64,000 nt of DNA, taken from contig CAYYXO010000002.1 in NCBI GenBank assembly GCA_964475745.1, forward strand, positions 11,679 through 75,678. The letters are read 5' to 3'. Of the stretch, positions 22,250 through 31,837 are shown in pieces. Origin of the DNA: an uncultured Candidatus Saccharibacteria bacterium (GTDB taxonomy: Bacteria; Patescibacteriota; Minisyncoccia; UBA6257; JAKLIH01). Made by a program: the position numbers and the translations under genes. Below the pieces are notes generated by a model. The model was not told the origin of the DNA and searched no databases. It worked only from the letters and a program-made list of their open reading frames with translations. How positions within the stretch are numbered: position 1 is the stretch's first letter; every line of letters begins with the position of its first letter.

Positions 22250-22277
22250 TTGACTTTTGATTTAAATATGCTATAAT
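22250..22277 (+). promoter_or_regulatory. putative 23S/5S rRNA promoter TTGACT, 16 nt, TGcTATAAT
   Basis: Read directly from the sequence, about 250 nt upstream of the 23S 5' end. Confidence 0.45.
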
Positions 22278-22529
22278 ATAAAACAGTTAACTAATATTAA
22301 AAGTTCATATTCTTATGAATAAAAGAGATTCAAAAAACAGTTTAAAATTCAGGTGGTAAAAACACAGAGTTTTTCTTTGTGATTATACCGCTTGTCAAAA
22401 GCGGTTTTTTAATTCTCTAATAGTATTGGTTGATCTTTGAAAAAAGAATAAGGGTAAAATGTATTTTCATTGGAAAATTAAATAAAAAACTTAATTGAAG
22501 TTTCTTCAATGCTTTAATTAAGATGAGGA

Positions 22530-25500
22530 GGTTAAGAGCAGATTGTGGATGCCTTGGCATCAAAAGGCGATGAAGGACGTGGCGTAACTGCGATAAGCTT
22601 CGGGGAGGCGTGTAGCAACCTTTGATCCGGAGATTTCCGAATGGGGAAACCCAGTAGACCTTTAAAAAGTCTATTACTTTACTATCGAAGGGTAGTATTG
22701 AGCAAACCTAGGGAAGTGAAACATCTCAGTACCTAGAGGAAAAGAAAACAACTTGTCTGTTTTTTATTTTTGGAGTTCAAAATTTTCTCCAAAGATAAAA
22801 CACAGCAAACATTCCCTGATTAGTGGCGAGCGAAACGGGAACAGCCCAAACCCAATAAATTTTACTTTGTAAAGTTTTCTGGGGGTTATAAGAAGTGCAA
22901 TTTGTCGAAAGACAAGAAGGTCAATCAAAGTTAATGATTAGTCGAAATGACTGGAAAGTCATGCCAAAGAGAGTGAAAGCCTTGTAGACAAAAATCGTTA
23001 ACTACCTTTTGTACTATCTTGAGTACTTCGAAGCAAAGGTGACTTCGGAGGAATTATCCTGGACTACACAGGAAAGGCTAAATACTTTTGATGACCGATA
23101 GTGAACAAGTACCGTGAGGGAAAGGTGAAAAGCAGCCTGATTAAGGCGATGAAATAGTATCTGAAACAATCATGCTTACAAGGAAGTGGAGACCGGTTGA
23201 TAATTTATTATCAATGGTTCACACTGTGCCTATTGAAGAATGAGCCGGCGAGTTTACCCATACTGCTTATTTAATCTGCTGAGGCAGAGTAGGTGTAGCG
23301 AAAGCGAGTGTTAATAGCGCGTATCAGGTTTACCTGAGTGCAGTATGTGTAAGACCCGAAGCCAGATGATCTTACCATGAGCAGGATGAATCCTACGTAA
23401 AACTAGGAGGAGGTCCGAACCAGTTGATTGTTCAATATCTTTGGATGACTTGTGGTAAGGAGTGAAATGCTAATCGTATCTGGGAATAGCTGGTTCTCTC
23501 CGAAATAGCTTTAGGGCTAGCGGTTTATTTATCATAATGGGGGTAGAGCACTGGATGGTGTGTGATTGGGGGAAACCCCGCCGCAGCAATCAAACTCCGA
23601 ATACTGTTATGTAATGTAAGCCAGTCAGACTGTGGGGGCTAAGCTTCATAGTCAAAAGGGTAAGAGCCCAGACCACCAATTAAGGTCCCTAAATTTAGTT
23701 AAGTGTTTATTAAAAGGTAGTGATTCACCGAAGACAGCTAGGAGGTTGGCTTAGAGGTAGCCATCCTTTTAAGAGTGTGTAACAACTCACTATCATATCC
23801 CGTAAGGGAATGGTGAATTGCGCCGAAGATGTACGGGGGCTAAAACTAAATACCGAAATTGTGGACTTTCTTCTTTTAGAAGGGAGTGGTAGGAGAGCGT
23901 TTCTTATTCGCTGAAGGTTGATCCGTGAGGGCAGCTGGAGGATAAGGAAGAGAGAATGCCGGCACAAGTAACCGCAAATCCGATGAGAAATCGGATCACC
24001 GTAAGCCCAAGGTTTCCTTGGCAATGTAAATCAGCCAAGGGTTAGGCGGTCCTAAGGCGATGACGAAAGTCGTAGTCGATGGATTACTGGTTAATATTCC
24101 AGTCCTTTTATTTGTTCTGACGGAGGGACGGAAGACAAAAGGTAGAGCGTCTTAGTGGTTTGACGTTGTAAGACATAGAGTTGCAAATTAGGCAAATCCG
24201 GTTTGCTGAATTCAATTTCAAAACTCAAGTCCAACAAAAGGGAGAAGTTTCTTCTTTCGATTCTACTGAAGAGCTTTCCAGGAAAAGCTTCTAAAGATAA
24301 ACAAATAAAAACCGTACTAAAACCGACACAGGTGGGCGAGGCGAGTAGCCTCAGGTGAACGGATGAGACCTCGTTAAGGAACTAGGCAAAAAAGCGGCCG
24401 TAAGTTAGCGATAAGGCCTGCCATCAGTAGCAATATTGATGGCCGCAGCGAAAGTATGCTTGGCGACTGTTTACCAAAAACACAGGTCCCTGCGAACCAG
24501 TAATGGGATGTATAGGGGCTGATGCCTGTCCGATGCCAGAAGGTGAAAAATGGCTGTCTTATGTCGTAAGATGTAAGGCTGACCGTTCTAAGCCCTGGTC
24601 AATGACAGCGGTAACTATAACCGTTCTAAGGTAGCGTAATTCCTTGTCAGGTAAGTTCTGACGTGCATGAAAGGTATAACGATCGAGCAACTGTCTCAAC
24701 GAGGTGTCCGGTGAAAATGCGTGTCCAGTGAAGACGCTGGGTACCCGTAGTTAGACGAAAAGACCCTAGAAGCTTTACTATAGCCTGACATTGGTTTTAG
24801 GTTTTGAATGCGTAGTGTAGTGGTGAGGATTTGAAGTTTTGGTTCCGGCCAAAATGGATCCGACAATGAAACAGCCATCTTTCTTAATTTAAAATCTAAC
24901 CCGAGTAGAAAAACTATTTGGGAACAGTGTTTGGTGGGTAGTTTTTGTGGGGCGCAATCCTCCTAAAAAGTAACGGAGGAGCCTATTAAGGTTGGCTATC
25001 CCGAGATGGAAATTCGGGAGGTAGTGTAAAGGCAAAAGCCAGCTTTATAGCAAGGAAGACATTCCGCGCTATTGCGAAAGCAGAGCTTAGTGACCCGACA
25101 CCACTTTGTAGAAAGGGTGGAGATTTCGGATAAAAGTTACTCTAGGGATAACAGGCTGGTGGGGCCCGAAAGTTCACATTGACGGCTCCGTTCGGCACCT
25201 CGATGTCGGCTCATCACATCCTGGGGCTGAAGCAGGTCCCAAGGGTTCGGCTGTTCGCCGATTAAAAAGATACGCGAGCTGGGTTCAATACGTCGTAAGG
25301 CAGTATGGACTCCTATCTACTACGGGCGTTAGATATTTGAGAGGACTTGACCATAGTACGAGAGGACCTGGTTGAACAAACCTCTGGTGTATCGGTTGTA
25401 CTACCAAGTGCATTGCCGAGTAGCTACGTTTGGATGAGATAAACGCTGAAAGCATCTAAGTGTGAAACTCACCTCAAGATTAGATATCTTAGGATCCTAA

Positions 25501-25590
25501 GAGATTATTAGGTTGATAGGCTCTAAGTGTAAGGCCAGTAATGGTTTTAGCTGAGGAGTACTAATTTCCATTTCCTCATCTTTATTAAAG
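22530..25590 (+). rRNA. rrl: 23S ribosomal RNA
   Basis: 5' GGTTAAGAGCAGATTGTGGATGCC..GCGATGAAGGACGTG. Internal conserved blocks include GTACCGTGAGGGAAAGGTGAAAAG, the sarcin-ricin AGTACGAGAGGACC and the peptidyl-transferase region. An extra roughly 60-nt hairpin (expansion) lies near 22745..22805. Confidence 0.9.
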
Positions 25591-25637
25591 TATTAAAGTA
25601 TATATTTTATTCCTTATTCTTTTCAAAAAATTAAATT

Positions 25638-25746
25638 GGGCTGGTGATTAATTGTGATATGTCCCACTCGTTTCCATTTCGAACACGATAGTGAAAGTAT
25701 CATGACTCGATAATACTCGCAAGGGGAAAGTAGAGTTTGCCAGCCC
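25638..25746 (+). rRNA. rrf: 5S ribosomal RNA
   Basis: Helix I GGGCTGG/CCAGCCC and the conserved internal CCCACTCGTTTCCATTTCGAACACGATAGT. It sits directly after 23S. Confidence 0.8.
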
Positions 25747-29913: not shown

Positions 29914-29976
29914 AGTTATGTTTTTTAAAGGGCCAAATAGCCCAGTATTTAGGGGAAAAAGTGTTAATAATAGCTA

Positions 29977-30005
29977 TTGACAAACGTGATTATTTTTGAT
30001 AATAT
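29977..30005 (+). promoter_or_regulatory. putative 16S rRNA promoter TTGACA, 17 nt, TGaTAATAT
   Basis: Read directly from the sequence, about 150 nt upstream of the 16S 5' end. It implies 16S is transcribed independently of 23S-5S. Confidence 0.5.
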
Positions 30006-30152
30006 ATAAAAGCAATACTTCAGTAGGAAGTGTTCTTTTAAACTTGAAAATTTAGATATACCACAACTAACAAATTCAAAGTTTTTTAGTTGCTCTAAAG
30101 GTTTATTTTTTTTGAATAAATTTTGTATATTTTATATACAGTTGTTTTTTTT

Positions 30153-31672
30153 GGATGAGGATTTGATCCTAGTCCAGAGTGAACGCTGGCGGTGTGGATA
30201 AGGCATACAAGTCGAACGGTTTGATATTACTTCGGTAGTATTAAATAGTGGCGAACGGGTTAGTAATATCTTGGTACCTACCTCTGAGTTGAGAATAATT
30301 CATCGAAAGATGGACTAATGTTCAATAGTCCCTAACAAGGGTAAAGGCGCAAGCCGCTTAGAGAAGGGCTTAGATCCCATCAGCTTGTTGGTAAGGTAAT
30401 GGCTTACCAAGGCGACGACGGGTAGGGGGTGTGAGAGCATGGCCCCCAACAAGGGCACTGAGACACGGGCCCTACTCCTACGGGAGGCAGTAGCCGAGAA
30501 TCTTGGTCAATGGGCGCAAGCCTGAACCAGCGACACCGCGTGTAGGATGAAGGCTTTCGGGTCGTAAACTACTTTTATTGGGGAAAAAGTTATTGATGGT
30601 ACCCAATGAATAAGGGGCTGCTAACTACGTGCCAGCAGCAGCGGTAATACGTAGGCCCCAAGCGTTACTCGAATTTACTGGGCGTAAAGTGTTCATAGGC
30701 GGCTTTGTTTCGCAAGAAAGTTTAAATCTTTGCTTTTGCAAAGGTTTGAATATAGTCTGATGTTAAAGGTTTTGGCTCAACCAAAAAATTGCATCGGAAA
30801 CGTCAAGGCTAGAATAAGGGGGAGGTTAATGGAATACACGGTGTAGGGGTGAAATCCGTTGATATCGTGTAGAACACCAAAAGCGAAGGCAATTAACTAT
30901 CTCTTCATTGACGCTCCATGAACGAAAGCGTGGGGAGCAAACAGGATTAGATACCCTGGTAGTCCACGCCCTAAACGATGATCATTAGCTTCTTGAAGTG
31001 TCGACCCTTCAGGTGGCGTAGCTAACGCGTTAAATGATCCGCCTGGGTAGTACGGCCGCAAGGCTAAAACTCAAAAGAATAGACCGGAGCTCGCACAAGC
31101 GGTGGAGCATGAGGTTTAATTCGATGGCACGCGATGAACCTTACCAGGGCTTGAAATGTTAATGAAAGCCATTCGAAAGATTGGCCCTCCGCAAGGACAT
31201 TAGCACAGGTGCTGCATGGTCGTCGTCAGTTCGTGGCGTGAGTTGTTCCCTTAAGTGGGGTAACGAACGCAACCCTTATCCTATGTTATACGTGTCATAG
31301 GAGACTGCCTATCTTTGATAGGAGGAAGGAGAGGATGACGATAGATCAGCATGGCCCTTTGACGCCCTGGGCGACACTCATGCTACAATGGCGATTACAA
31401 TGGGTTGCCAAGTCGTAAGACGGAGCTAATCCCAAAAAAATCGTCCCAGTTCGGATTGAGGTCTGAAACTCGACCTCATGAAGTCGGAATCGCTAGTAAT
31501 CGTGGGTCAGCCACACCACGGTGAATACGTTCCCGAGCTCTGTACTCACCGCCCGTCAATTCAAGGGAGTTGGTAACAGCTGAAGGCTCCGCAAGGGGAT
31601 TAGGCTGGGATCAATGACAGGGGATAAGTCGTAACAAGGTACCGCTACCGGAAGGTGGAGGTGAAACATTTC
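30153..31672 (+). rRNA. rrs: 16S ribosomal RNA
   Basis: GATCCTAGTCCAGAGTGAACGCTGGCGG at the 5' end, CTACGGGAGGCAGTAG, GTGCCAGCAGCAGCGGTAATAC, GCACAAGCGGTGGAGCATG and GTCGTAACAAGGTA. The 3' tail after helix 45 reads GAAACATTTCTTTT and lacks CCTCC. Confidence 0.9.
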
Positions 31673-31799
31673 TTTTAGGAATCTTTGTTTAATTTGATTC
31701 GTCAAATTAAACTATTCCAAGGTCGTCCCGAATATTTTTTAAATATTTTGGAACTTGTTAAACTAAACCTGCTGGAGCAACTAAAAAGTTTTGAATCAA

Positions 31800-31837
31800 A
31801 AAAGGATACTATTTATTTAGTGTCCTTTTTTGTTTTA
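31800..31837 (+). terminator. rho-independent terminator downstream of 16S
   Basis: Hairpin aaggatact-atttattt-agtgtcctt followed by TTTT. Confidence 0.55.

What the first reader, a model, noticed from the sequence alone, without database searches (positions are those of the whole stretch)
22250..31837. Unlinked, reordered rRNA genes with cell-wall and repair genes between 5S and 16S
The order on one strand is 23S-5S-terminator, then a PG-binding-domain protein, a SEDS glycosyltransferase, MltG and RecR, then a separate consensus promoter and 16S. No tRNA lies in either spacer. The 16S therefore has its own transcription unit about 4.4 kb downstream of 5S. The 23S also carries an extra roughly 60-nt hairpin near 22745..22805 relative to the E. 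coli helix-9/10 region.
Basis: seen in the sequence. Interest (0 to 1): 0.5.

Follow-up and report, generated by a model that had tools for sequence, protein, structure and literature searches.

The report
Split rRNA genes in a Patescibacterium
The ribosomal RNA genes of this tiny uncultured bacterium really are split into a 23S-5S unit and a separate 16S unit with four cell-wall and repair genes between them; the layout is genuine and shared with relatives, but it is an ordinary example of something already known to be common in this group of bacteria.

Summary
23S (22522-25582), 5S (25640-25745) and 16S (30151-31676) lie on the + strand in that order. No tRNA lies near them. A strong terminator follows 5S. 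Four genes (PG_binding_1 protein, SEDS, MltG/YceG, RecR) fill the 4405-nt gap, and a near-consensus promoter precedes 16S.

The four genes read through only if UGA is a sense codon. Here UGA means Trp (code 4), a trait reported in 2026 for some Patescibacteriota.

The arrangement is not an assembly artefact. Five independent contigs are 100% identical to parts of it. Relatives with 93-94% identical 16S carry the same order piecewise: GatA..P-23S, P-23S-5S-T-PGB, 5S-T-PGB-SEDS-MltG-RecR-16S.

Each rRNA has its own conserved promoter, a boxB/boxA-like leader and its own leader-trailer stem, and each unit ends in its own terminator. I infer two independent rrn-type transcription units with a separate mRNA operon between them.

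The extra 23S hairpin is real: 54 nt at 22754-22807, inserted after E. coli position ~229. That is 3' of helix 11, not in helices 9/10. A hairpin of about 22 bp at this site occurs in at least 120 metagenome contigs, with 101 distinct sequences that all fold.

Unlinked rRNA genes are already documented as common in Patescibacteria. This is a new member of a known kind, of modest interest.

The parts
22250..22277 (+). Promoter of the 23S-5S unit: TTGACT, 16-nt spacer, TG-extended TATAAT
   Evidence: 11 of 12 consensus matches. The -35 hexamer, the TG and the -10 hexamer are invariant in relatives L113, L111, L202 and L193.
22284..22425 (+). Structured 23S leader with a terminator-like hairpin (22387-22405 plus T-run 22406-22411) that can alternatively pair with GGUGGUA at 22351-22358
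   Evidence: MFE -38 kcal/mol, z -6.6. The hairpin and T-run are conserved in four relatives. The consensus fold uses the alternative pairing. No Rfam family matches.
22431..22443 (+). boxA-like element TGATCTTTGAAAA in the 23S leader
   Evidence: Read and nearly invariant in relatives. The resemblance to rrn boxA (E. coli GCTCTTTAACAA; Firmicutes TGTTCTTTGAAAA) is from memory.
22430..22465 (+). 5' arm of the 23S processing stem; pairs with 25600-25634
   Evidence: RNAduplex -27.9 kcal/mol against shuffles at -14.9 +/- 3.0 (z -4.3). The cross-control with the 16S trailer gives z -0.3.
22522..25582 (+). 23S rRNA gene, 3061 nt, full length, no intron-sized insertion
   Evidence: Rfam RF02541, 2295.9 bits, model positions 1-2925. 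The indel map against E. coli rrlH is.
22754..22807 (+). Extra 23S helix: a 54-nt hairpin inserted after E. coli position ~229
   Evidence: The same site carries a hairpin of 16-29 bp in 101 of 101 distinct inserts from at least 120 metagenome contigs; mean z is -7.1.
25583..25639 (+). 23S-5S spacer, 57 nt, holding the 3' arm of the 23S processing stem (25600-25634)
25640..25745 (+). 5S rRNA gene, short form of 106 nt
   Evidence: Rfam RF00001, 51.5 bits. 5S genes of 105-110 nt are typical of Parcubacteria (PMC9297842).
25753..25790 (+). Intrinsic terminator of the 23S-5S unit: 15-bp stem, 10 G-C pairs, then a T-run
   Evidence: The stem is kept through compensatory changes in L113 and L087.
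25808..25836 (+). Probable promoter of the mRNA operon: TATAAT at 25831-25836 with a weak -35 (TTGTAT)
   Evidence: Read. The block 25807-25905 is about 80% conserved in L087 and L088 even though they have a ~470-nt insertion upstream of it. This is an inference.
25861..27177 (+). PG_binding_1-domain protein, 438 aa, N-terminal membrane anchor, 4 UGA(Trp) codons
   Evidence: Pfam PF01471, two repeats, E 1.2e-19.
27179..28270 (+). SEDS glycosyltransferase (FtsW/RodA family), 363 aa, 6 UGA(Trp) codons
   Evidence: Pfam PF01098, E 4.8e-78. The UGA positions align with Trp in homologs.
28273..29274 (+). MltG/YceG endolytic transglycosylase, 333 aa
   Evidence: Pfam PF02618, E 2.8e-59. 1951 homologs found.
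29290..29913 (+). RecR, 207 aa, 1 UGA(Trp) codon
   Evidence: Pfam Toprim_4, Toprim, RecR_C and RecR_HhH.
29977..30005 (+). Promoter of the 16S unit: TTGACA, 17-nt spacer, TG-extended TAATAT
   Evidence: 10 of 12 consensus matches. CTATTGACAA is invariant in L085, L087 and L090.
30017..30043 (+). boxB-like hairpin (30017-30031) followed by boxA-like TGTTCTTTTAAAC (30031-30043) in the 16S leader
   Evidence: GGAAGTGTTCTTT is invariant in relatives. The boxA resemblance is from memory.
30074..30105 (+). 5' arm of the 16S processing stem; pairs with 31764-31796
   Evidence: RNAduplex -38.1 kcal/mol, z -3.6. The cross-control with the 23S trailer gives z -1.6. Relatives show an A-U to G-C compensatory change.
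30151..31676 (+). 16S rRNA gene, 1526 nt, no insertion; its 3' tail lacks CCUCC
   Evidence: Rfam RF00177, 1330.8 bits. The 3' end was read.
31764..31796 (+). 3' arm of the 16S processing stem
31804..31836 (+). Intrinsic terminator of the 16S unit: GGATACTA/TAGTGTCC stem plus T-run
   Evidence: Read. Relatives have a different hairpin sequence at the same place followed by a conserved TTTTTGT. Homology with relatives ends at 31836.

Best explanation
This is a genuine, vertically inherited gene order in a small-genome, low-GC (about 30%) member of the Patescibacteria (Parcubacteria/Minisyncoccia type) that reads UGA as tryptophan.

The rRNA genes are organised as two independent rrn-type transcription units on the same, probably leading, strand.
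- Unit 1: promoter, structured leader, 23S, a 57-nt spacer, 5S and a strong terminator.
- Unit 2: promoter, leader, 16S and a terminator.

Each large rRNA carries its own boxB/boxA-like antitermination leader. Each also has its own long leader-trailer helix, of the kind RNase III cuts in ordinary operons. Maturation therefore does not need a joint 30S-type precursor.

Between the units lies a separate mRNA operon for cell-envelope growth and repair (PG-binding protein, SEDS polymerase, MltG, RecR) with its own promoter. Balanced 16S and 23S output would depend on the two similar, near-consensus TG-extended promoters rather than on co-transcription.

The left half of the arrangement (23S-5S upstream of PGB-SEDS-MltG) is old and also occurs in more distant Patescibacteria. 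The RecR-16S linkage on the right was seen only in the close relatives.

Shown here: gene identities, gene order, conservation, and the structural potential of the leaders, trailers and terminators. Inferred: actual transcript boundaries, RNase III cleavage, and antitermination.
For: Positions and strands of the rRNA genes and the absence of tRNA come.

Independent, identical assemblies: L158 covers window 22178-25190 and L001-L004 cover 27014-30953.

Same order in relatives with 93-94% identical 16S and about 87% identical 23S: L111 and L193 (GatA..P-23S), L113 (P-23S-5S-T-PGB), L087 and L088 (5S-T-PGB-SEDS-MltG, continuing to RecR-16S in L087), and L085 and L090 (SEDS-MltG-RecR-16S).

Wider synteny of 23S-5S upstream of SEDS-MltG, with PGB between them in L099, L177, L183 and L106: L018, L023 and L035 and L099, L177, L183 and L106.

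Cognate leader-trailer duplexes give z -3.6 (16S) and -4.3 (23S). Cross-combinations give z -1.6 and -0.3. Promoter hexamers and boxA-like motifs are invariant in relatives, and both terminators and the 16S stem show compensatory changes.

Unlinked rRNA genes are reported as common in Patescibacteria (10.1101/705046).
Against: There are no RNA data, so transcript ends, processing sites and promoter strengths are inferred from sequence alone.

Only a weak hairpin separates RecR from the 16S promoter, so read-through from the mRNA operon into 16S is not excluded.

The 23S leader holds a conserved terminator-like hairpin upstream of boxA, whose role is unknown.

For the exact organism, window 25190-27014 (23S 3' end, 5S, terminator, start of PGB) is covered only by the window itself. 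There, support comes from relatives L113, L087 and L088.

A more distant code-4 relative, L005, has PGB-SEDS-MltG with no rRNA beside it, so the linkage is not universal.

Whether the genome has further rRNA copies cannot be told from 64 kb.
Confidence: 0.82

Rival explanations
1. Assembly artefact: the contig was joined wrongly inside conserved rRNA sequence, so 23S-5S, the four genes and 16S are not really neighbours.
For: Short-read assemblies often break or mis-join at rRNA genes. The independent contigs of this organism do end inside the rRNA genes (L001-L003 end inside 16S and L158 inside 23S). No independent contig of the same strain covers 25190-27014.
Against: Every junction is reproduced. 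RecR-16S appears in three independent assemblies of the same strain (L001, L002, L003). Promoter-23S appears in L158. 23S-5S-PGB appears on the single contig L113. 5S-PGB...RecR-16S appears on the single contig L087. The non-rRNA flanks (leaders, trailers, terminators) are collinear with relatives. The rare UGA=Trp coding and the GC and GC-skew profile are uniform across all junctions.
Confidence: 0.03
2. One long transcription unit: the genes are physically arranged as seen, but 16S is made mainly by read-through from the upstream mRNA operon, or even from the 23S promoter. rRNA and cell-wall gene expression would then be coupled, and the '16S promoter' would be minor.
For: All elements lie on one strand with short gaps. 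Only a weak hairpin (GGGCCAAATAGCCC) lies between RecR and 16S. boxA-type antitermination, if active from the 23S leader, could in principle carry polymerase through the 5S terminator.
Against: The 5S terminator is strong (15 bp, 10 G-C pairs, T-run) and is kept by compensatory changes. The 16S promoter is a 10-of-12 consensus with a TG extension, and its -35 hexamer is invariant in relatives. The 16S has its own boxB/boxA-like leader and its own closed leader-trailer stem. In L087 and L088 a ~470-nt insertion with an opposite-strand ORF sits between the 5S terminator and PGB.
Confidence: 0.1
3. The extra 23S hairpin is an intervening sequence (IVS) rather than a permanent expansion helix. RNase III would excise it, leaving a fragmented 23S made of a 5' piece of about 230 nt and a 3' piece of about 2.8 kb.
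For: The insert is a nearly perfect hairpin of about 22 bp (two helical turns), the size class of RNase III substrates. Salmonella IVSs in helices 25 and 45 are hairpins excised by RNase III without loss of function (PMC2672173).
Against: The site (E. coli ~229) is not one of the known IVS sites. At 54 nt the insert is shorter than the 83-112 nt IVSs listed there. Strict conservation of helix presence and length across 101 different sequences with GC from 0.17 to 0.76 fits a structural part of the ribosome at least as well. There are no RNA data.
Confidence: 0.2

Closest known systems
Unlinked rRNA genes as surveyed by Brewer et al. ('Unlinked rRNA genes are widespread among Bacteria and Archaea', bioRxiv 10.1101/705046); examples are Thermus, Rickettsiales, Helicobacter, Dehalococcoidia and Patescibacteria
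   Same: 16S is separated from a 23S-5S pair, with no shared spacer and no spacer tRNAs. The trait is phylogenetically conserved within the clade, and that survey names Patescibacteria as a group with many unlinked members.
   Different: Here the two units are only 4.4 kb apart, on the same strand, with 23S-5S upstream of 16S. The intervening genes form a conserved cell-wall and repair cluster. I found no description of this particular synteny, but I did not search for it exhaustively.
Canonical bacterial rrn operon (E. coli rrnH: 16S, tRNA-Ile, tRNA-Ala, 23S, 5S)
   Same: It shares near-consensus promoters, boxB/boxA-like leader elements, leader-trailer helices flanking each large rRNA, a 23S-5S pair with a short spacer, and an intrinsic terminator.
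   Different: The gene order is permuted and the operon is split into two units. There are no spacer tRNAs. The element equivalent to the 'spacer boxA' now sits in a promoter-proximal 23S leader.
23S rRNA intervening sequences of Salmonella and other bacteria (helices 25 and 45; PMC2672173)
   Same: A lineage-specific extended hairpin is inserted in a surface region of 23S.
   Different: The site is different (after E. coli ~229). The insert is shorter. It is present as a length-constrained helix in very many divergent environmental sequences. Excision was not tested.
UGA-to-Trp Patescibacteriota: class Minisyncoccia, family JAKLIH01 and genus GCA-2747955 (NAR 2026, PMC13092985; gTranslate preprint 10.64898/2026.05.24.727570)
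   Same: The window comes from a low-GC Patescibacteria-type genome in which UGA sits at conserved Trp positions and interchanges with UGG among relatives.
   Different: I could not place the window in either named lineage. tRNA-Trp(UCA) and the absence of RF2 cannot be checked within 64 kb.

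Membership tests
Unlinked rRNA genes (sensu Brewer et al.) | 16S and 23S are not joined by an internal transcribed spacer; they are separated by more than about 1.5 kb or by other genes | tested here: met
   23S-5S lies upstream of 16S. 4405 nt holding four protein genes separate 5S from 16S. Nothing rRNA-like follows 16S within the window.
Unlinked rRNA genes (sensu Brewer et al.) | The arrangement is a property of the genome, not of the assembly, and is conserved in the clade | tested here: met
   Independent identical contigs L001-L004 and L158, and relatives L085, L087, L088, L090, L111, L113 and L193.
Canonical rrn operon (16S-ITS-23S-5S) | Order 16S, then 23S, then 5S, under one promoter, with tRNA gene(s) in the spacer | tested here: not met
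   The order is 23S-5S...16S, no tRNA is present, and a terminator follows 5S.
rrn antitermination leader (boxB-boxA) | A hairpin followed by a boxA motif between the promoter and the mature rRNA, bound by NusB/NusE | tested here: inconclusive
   TGTTCTTTTAAAC (30031-30043) follows a hairpin, and TGATCTTTGAAAA (22431-22443) lies downstream of a hairpin. Both are conserved in relatives. The match to boxA was judged by eye against remembered consensus sequences. Binding is not testable here.
RNase III processing stems of pre-rRNA | Long complementarity between the 5' leader and the 3' trailer of the same rRNA | tested here: met
   16S: -38.1 kcal/mol, z -3.6. 23S: -27.9 kcal/mol, z -4.3. Cross-controls are not significant. 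Relatives carry a compensatory change.
RNase III processing stems of pre-rRNA | Cleavage by RNase III in vivo | not testable with these tools
   This needs RNA 5'/3'-end mapping. No rnc gene was looked for beyond the window.
23S intervening sequence (IVS) | An extended hairpin replaces the tip of helix 9, 25 or 45 | tested here: not met
   The insert lies after E. coli position 229, between the 184-215 hairpin and the 234-262 hairpin. The classical sites H25 and H45 are cited in PMC2672173.
23S intervening sequence (IVS) | The hairpin is excised from the mature rRNA, giving fragmented 23S | not testable with these tools
   No transcript data.
Genetic code 4 (UGA = Trp) | In-frame UGA at positions where homologs have Trp; UGA and UGG interchange among close relatives | tested here: met
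   SEDS position 168 has W in 10 of 10 standard-code homologs, and position 133 has W in 6 of 11. TGA and TGG alternate at the same positions in L085-L090. One Tgt UGA aligns with the conserved W of the Z. mobilis enzyme. At two of the six SEDS UGA positions (79 and 245), which are poorly conserved, Gly is a minority residue (2 homologs each).
Genetic code 4 (UGA = Trp) | tRNA-Trp(UCA) present and release factor 2 absent | not testable with these tools
   The window holds only tRNA-Gln(UUG) and tRNA-Leu(CAA). The rest of the genome is not available.
SEDS / MltG / RecR / PG_binding_1 protein families | Pfam domain match above the curated cut-off | tested here: met
   PF01098 263 bits, PF02618 201 bits, PF13662 60.7 bits and PF21175 27.1 bits (RecR), and PF01471 70.7 bits. 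RecR_HhH (PF21176) scored 23.2 bits, below its cut-off of 27.

The most novel reading that the evidence does not exclude
The ~22-bp helix inserted after E. coli 23S position ~229 may be a previously uncatalogued, widespread bacterial rRNA expansion element. It is present in this lineage and in at least 100 divergent environmental lineages, with its length conserved but not its sequence. It would either form a new surface feature of these ribosomes or be cut out by RNase III to give a naturally fragmented 23S.

This lineage also has stand-alone 23S and 16S units, an attenuator-like 23S leader and a 16S that lacks the anti-Shine-Dalgarno sequence. Taken together, that would mark an unusually rewired system for making and using ribosomes.
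Probability: 0.25. Interest if true: 0.5.

Novelty: new member of a known kind. Interest (0 to 1): 0.3.

Why it matters
The finding adds a well-supported, sequence-level example of how a minimal bacterium runs split rRNA genes. There are two self-contained units, each with its own promoter, antitermination-like leader, processing helix and terminator, only 4.4 kb apart and in permuted order.

This has a practical consequence. Amplicon methods that span 16S-ITS-23S will miss this lineage, and short-read assemblies break on both sides of the 4-gene cassette.

The conserved neighbourhood (23S-5S next to PGB-SEDS-MltG) can serve as a synteny marker within Patescibacteria.

None of this overturns current understanding, because unlinked rRNA genes are already known to be common in this phylum.

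Tried and rejected
1. UGA = Gly (code 25, Gracilibacteria/Absconditabacteria) was my first guess, based on low GC and the presence of cell-wall genes. I rejected it because UGA aligns with Trp and interchanges with UGG.

It returned only distant homologs (39% identity or less) and did not retrieve the source genome or the close relatives. It did reveal the wider 23S-5S-SEDS-MltG synteny.

3. Look-ups of the PG-binding protein for an independent contig across the 5S-PGB junction failed.

5. I looked for any known RNA family in the 5S-16S interval and in the 23S leader. Nothing credible turned up.

6. I tested whether an altered Shine-Dalgarno motif (AGAAA) compensates for the changed 16S tail. 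It is not enriched: 3 of 43 upstream regions against a background of 8%.

8. I could not assign the window to JAKLIH01 or GCA-2747955, because no marker-gene phylogeny is possible with these tools.

Full report
**Observation**

Rfam places a full-length 23S gene at 22522-25582, a 106-nt 5S at 25640-25745 and a full-length 16S at 30151-31676, all on the + strand. ARAGORN and Rfam find only two tRNAs in the window, at 43.5 kb and 58.6 kb. A permissive Rfam search of the 5S-16S interval finds no other known RNA.

The consensus scan finds three sites:
- TTGACT-16-TATAAT, TG-extended, 11 of 12 matches, at 22250-22277;
- a 15-bp hairpin with 10 G-C pairs and a T-run at 25753-25785, right after 5S;
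- TTGACA-17-TAATAT, TG-extended, at 29977-30005.

A second terminator (stem 31804-31825, T-run to 31836) follows 16S.

**The genes in between, and the genetic code**

Under the standard code the interval is a set of fragments. With TGA read as sense it holds four tightly packed genes. Pfam identifies them:
- 25861-27177, PG_binding_1 x2;
- 27179-28270, FTSW_RODA_SPOVE (SEDS);
- 28273-29274, YceG (MltG);
- 29290-29913, RecR.

I first suspected code 25 (UGA = Gly), but the data indicate Trp.
- At SEDS position 168, 10 of 10 standard-code homologs have W. At position 133, 6 of 11 do.
- Among close relatives, TGA and TGG alternate at the same codons.
- One Tgt UGA aligns with the conserved W of the Z. 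mobilis enzyme.

UGA-to-Trp in Patescibacteriota (class Minisyncoccia, family JAKLIH01 and genus GCA-2747955) was first reported in 2026 (PMC13092985; 10.64898/2026.05.24.727570). The window fits that picture, but I could not assign it to a named lineage.

**Is the arrangement real?**

Five independent contigs, from at least four samples, are 100% identical to the window:
- L158 (JGI) covers 22178-25190;
- L001 (ENA) covers 27014-30501;
- L002 (JGI) covers 28110-30953;
- L003 (Logan) covers 28113-30416;
- L004 (ENA) covers 27837-29847.

Three of these run from RecR into 16S.

Relatives (MltG about 50% amino-acid identity, 16S 93-94%, 23S about 87%) reproduce every junction:
- L111 and L193 have GatA and its neighbours, then the promoter and 23S.
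- L113 is collinear with window 22221-25917 and continues into PGB.
- L087 and L088 begin in the 3' part of 5S and run through the terminator, PGB, SEDS and MltG. L087 continues into RecR and a complete 16S.
- L085 and L090 have SEDS-MltG-RecR-16S.

UGA-containing genes and a uniform GC and GC-skew profile lie on both sides of each rRNA gene. A chimera is therefore very unlikely. The one stretch without same-strain confirmation is 25190-27014.

**How far the synteny reaches**

More distant Patescibacteria have 23S-5S followed on the same strand by (PGB-)SEDS-MltG. These are L018, L023 and L035 from genomes and L099, L177, L183 and L106 from metagenomes. L018 and L035 have no 16S within 10 kb downstream.

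L005, a more distant code-4 relative, has PGB-SEDS-MltG-TyrS with no rRNA next to it.

The left half of the arrangement is therefore old but patchy. The RecR-16S linkage was seen only in the close group. Homology with relatives stops at 31836. Beyond that point each genome has different genes. Here they are an IS200-like transposase and a Dam-type methylase. In the relatives they include AbiEi-like and DNA-methylase genes.

**How it probably works**

Both rRNA promoters are conserved. TTGACTTTT...TGnTATAATA before 23S is invariant in five sequences. CTATTGACAA before 16S is invariant in four.

Each leader has a hairpin followed by a boxA-like motif: TGATCTTTGAAAA at 22431-22443 and TGTTCTTTTAAAC at 30031-30043. 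Both are conserved in relatives. The likeness to rrn boxA rests on my memory of the consensus sequences.

Each large rRNA has its own leader-trailer complementarity:
- 16S: 30074-30105 with 31764-31796, -38.1 kcal/mol, z -3.6.
- 23S: 22430-22465 with 25600-25634, -27.9 kcal/mol, z -4.3.
- The cross-combinations are not significant (z -1.6 and -0.3).

In relatives, the 16S stem carries an A-U to G-C compensatory change, the 5S terminator has compensatory substitutions, and the 16S terminator has a different hairpin sequence at the same place.

I therefore infer three transcription units: P-23S-5S-T, a separate mRNA operon with its own -10 box (25831-25836), and P-16S-T. Each rRNA would be matured from its own precursor. 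Transcript ends and cleavage are inferred, not shown. Read-through from RecR into 16S is not excluded.

**The extra 23S hairpin**

Rfam shows 62 nt where the model has 8. Alignment with E. coli rrlH puts a 54-nt insertion at 22754-22807, after E. coli position 229. That is 3' of the 184-215 hairpin, not in helices 9/10 (E. coli 132-174). It folds into one hairpin of -21.3 kcal/mol, and the distant relative L018 lacks it.

I scanned metagenome contigs for any 35-65-nt insertion between the conserved flanks. The 101 distinct inserts all fold into a single hairpin of 16-29 bp (mean 22). Their mean z is -7.1, every z is below -3, and GC runs from 0.17 to 0.76.

The helix is thus conserved in structure but not in sequence across many lineages. 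Whether it stays in the ribosome or is excised like the Salmonella IVSs (PMC2672173) cannot be told without RNA data. The 23S has no intron-sized insertion. Its other length differences from E. coli are small or lie in regions where E. coli itself is short.

**Comparison with what is known, and verdict**

Brewer et al. (10.1101/705046) showed that unlinked rRNA genes are widespread. They named Patescibacteria among the clades where such genes are common and conserved. Tsurumaki et al. (PMC9297842) describe the short 105-110-nt 5S of Parcubacteria and the single-copy rRNA genes of CPR bacteria.

The finding is a clean, conserved example of a known kind. Its particular features are the permuted order, the short distance, and the conserved cell-wall and repair cassette between the units. 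I score interest at 0.3 and novelty as 'new member of a known kind'.

**Side observations**

Several side observations are listed separately: UGA = Trp, a 16S tail without CCUCC together with the absence of SD motifs, an attenuator-like 23S leader, and the widespread extra helix. They are at least as interesting as the gene order itself.

Noticed in passing
Whole window; for example 27179-28270 (6 in-frame TGA), 25861-27177 (4) and 45233-47863 (4): UGA is a sense codon throughout the window and codes for Trp (code 4), not Gly. It aligns with conserved Trp in standard-code homologs and alternates with UGG among close relatives. UGA-to-Trp in Patescibacteriota was first reported only in 2026 (PMC13092985; 10.64898/2026.05.24.727570). 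Locus L005 (GTDB genome contig CAZFNU010000039.1) shows the same recoding.
   Followed up: yes
Window 31650-31679 (16S 3' end) and the 20 nt upstream of 43 gene starts: The 16S 3' tail reads GAAACAUUUCUUUU instead of GAUCACCUCCUUA, so the anti-Shine-Dalgarno CCUCC has become UUUCU. This is invariant in relatives L085, L087 and L090. Only 2 of 43 genes have a GGAG/GAGG/AGGA motif upstream, against a background of 13%. The complementary AGAAA is not enriched. Upstream regions are 88% A+T. This points to SD-independent initiation. No paper in the library pairs 'anti-Shine-Dalgarno' with 'Patescibacteria'.
   Followed up: partly
Window 22284-22425 (23S leader): The leader is strongly structured (z -6.6). 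It holds a terminator-like hairpin plus T-run (22387-22411) that is conserved in relatives. The 5' arm of that hairpin can instead pair with an invariant GGUGGUA at 22351-22358. This is an attenuator-like pair of alternative folds in front of 23S, upstream of the boxA-like motif. There is no covariation, because the pairs are invariant, and no Rfam match.
   Followed up: partly
L092-L211 (metagenome contigs), the site equivalent to window 22754-22807: At least 120 environmental contigs carry a hairpin of 16-29 bp at the same 23S site. There are 101 distinct sequences with GC from 0.17 to 0.76, all folding as one hairpin. The taxa were not identified.
   Followed up: partly
Window 31854-36783, and L085, L087 and L090 downstream of 16S: The region immediately after the 16S terminator is not conserved among relatives. 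Here it holds hypothetical genes, one of the window's two genes with a Shine-Dalgarno-like upstream motif and the only one with a full GGAGG (32575), an IS200-like Y1 transposase (34607-35317) and a D12 Dam-type methyltransferase (35770-36783). In relatives it holds AbiEi-like and DNA-methylase genes. It looks like a variable or mobile island next to the 16S.
   Followed up: partly
L087 116-584 and L088 98-566: These relatives have an insertion of about 470 nt, with an opposite-strand ORF (113 aa in L088), between the 5S terminator and the PGB promoter block. The window and L113 lack it.
   Followed up: no
Whole window: Nearly all genes lie on the + strand, and GC skew is positive in every 2-kb bin. 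The window therefore seems to lie entirely on one replichore, with genes and rRNA co-oriented with replication.
   Followed up: no
Window 25640-25745: The 5S gene is only 106 nt long (Rfam model 120 nt). This matches the short 5S class described for Parcubacteria (PMC9297842).
   Followed up: partly
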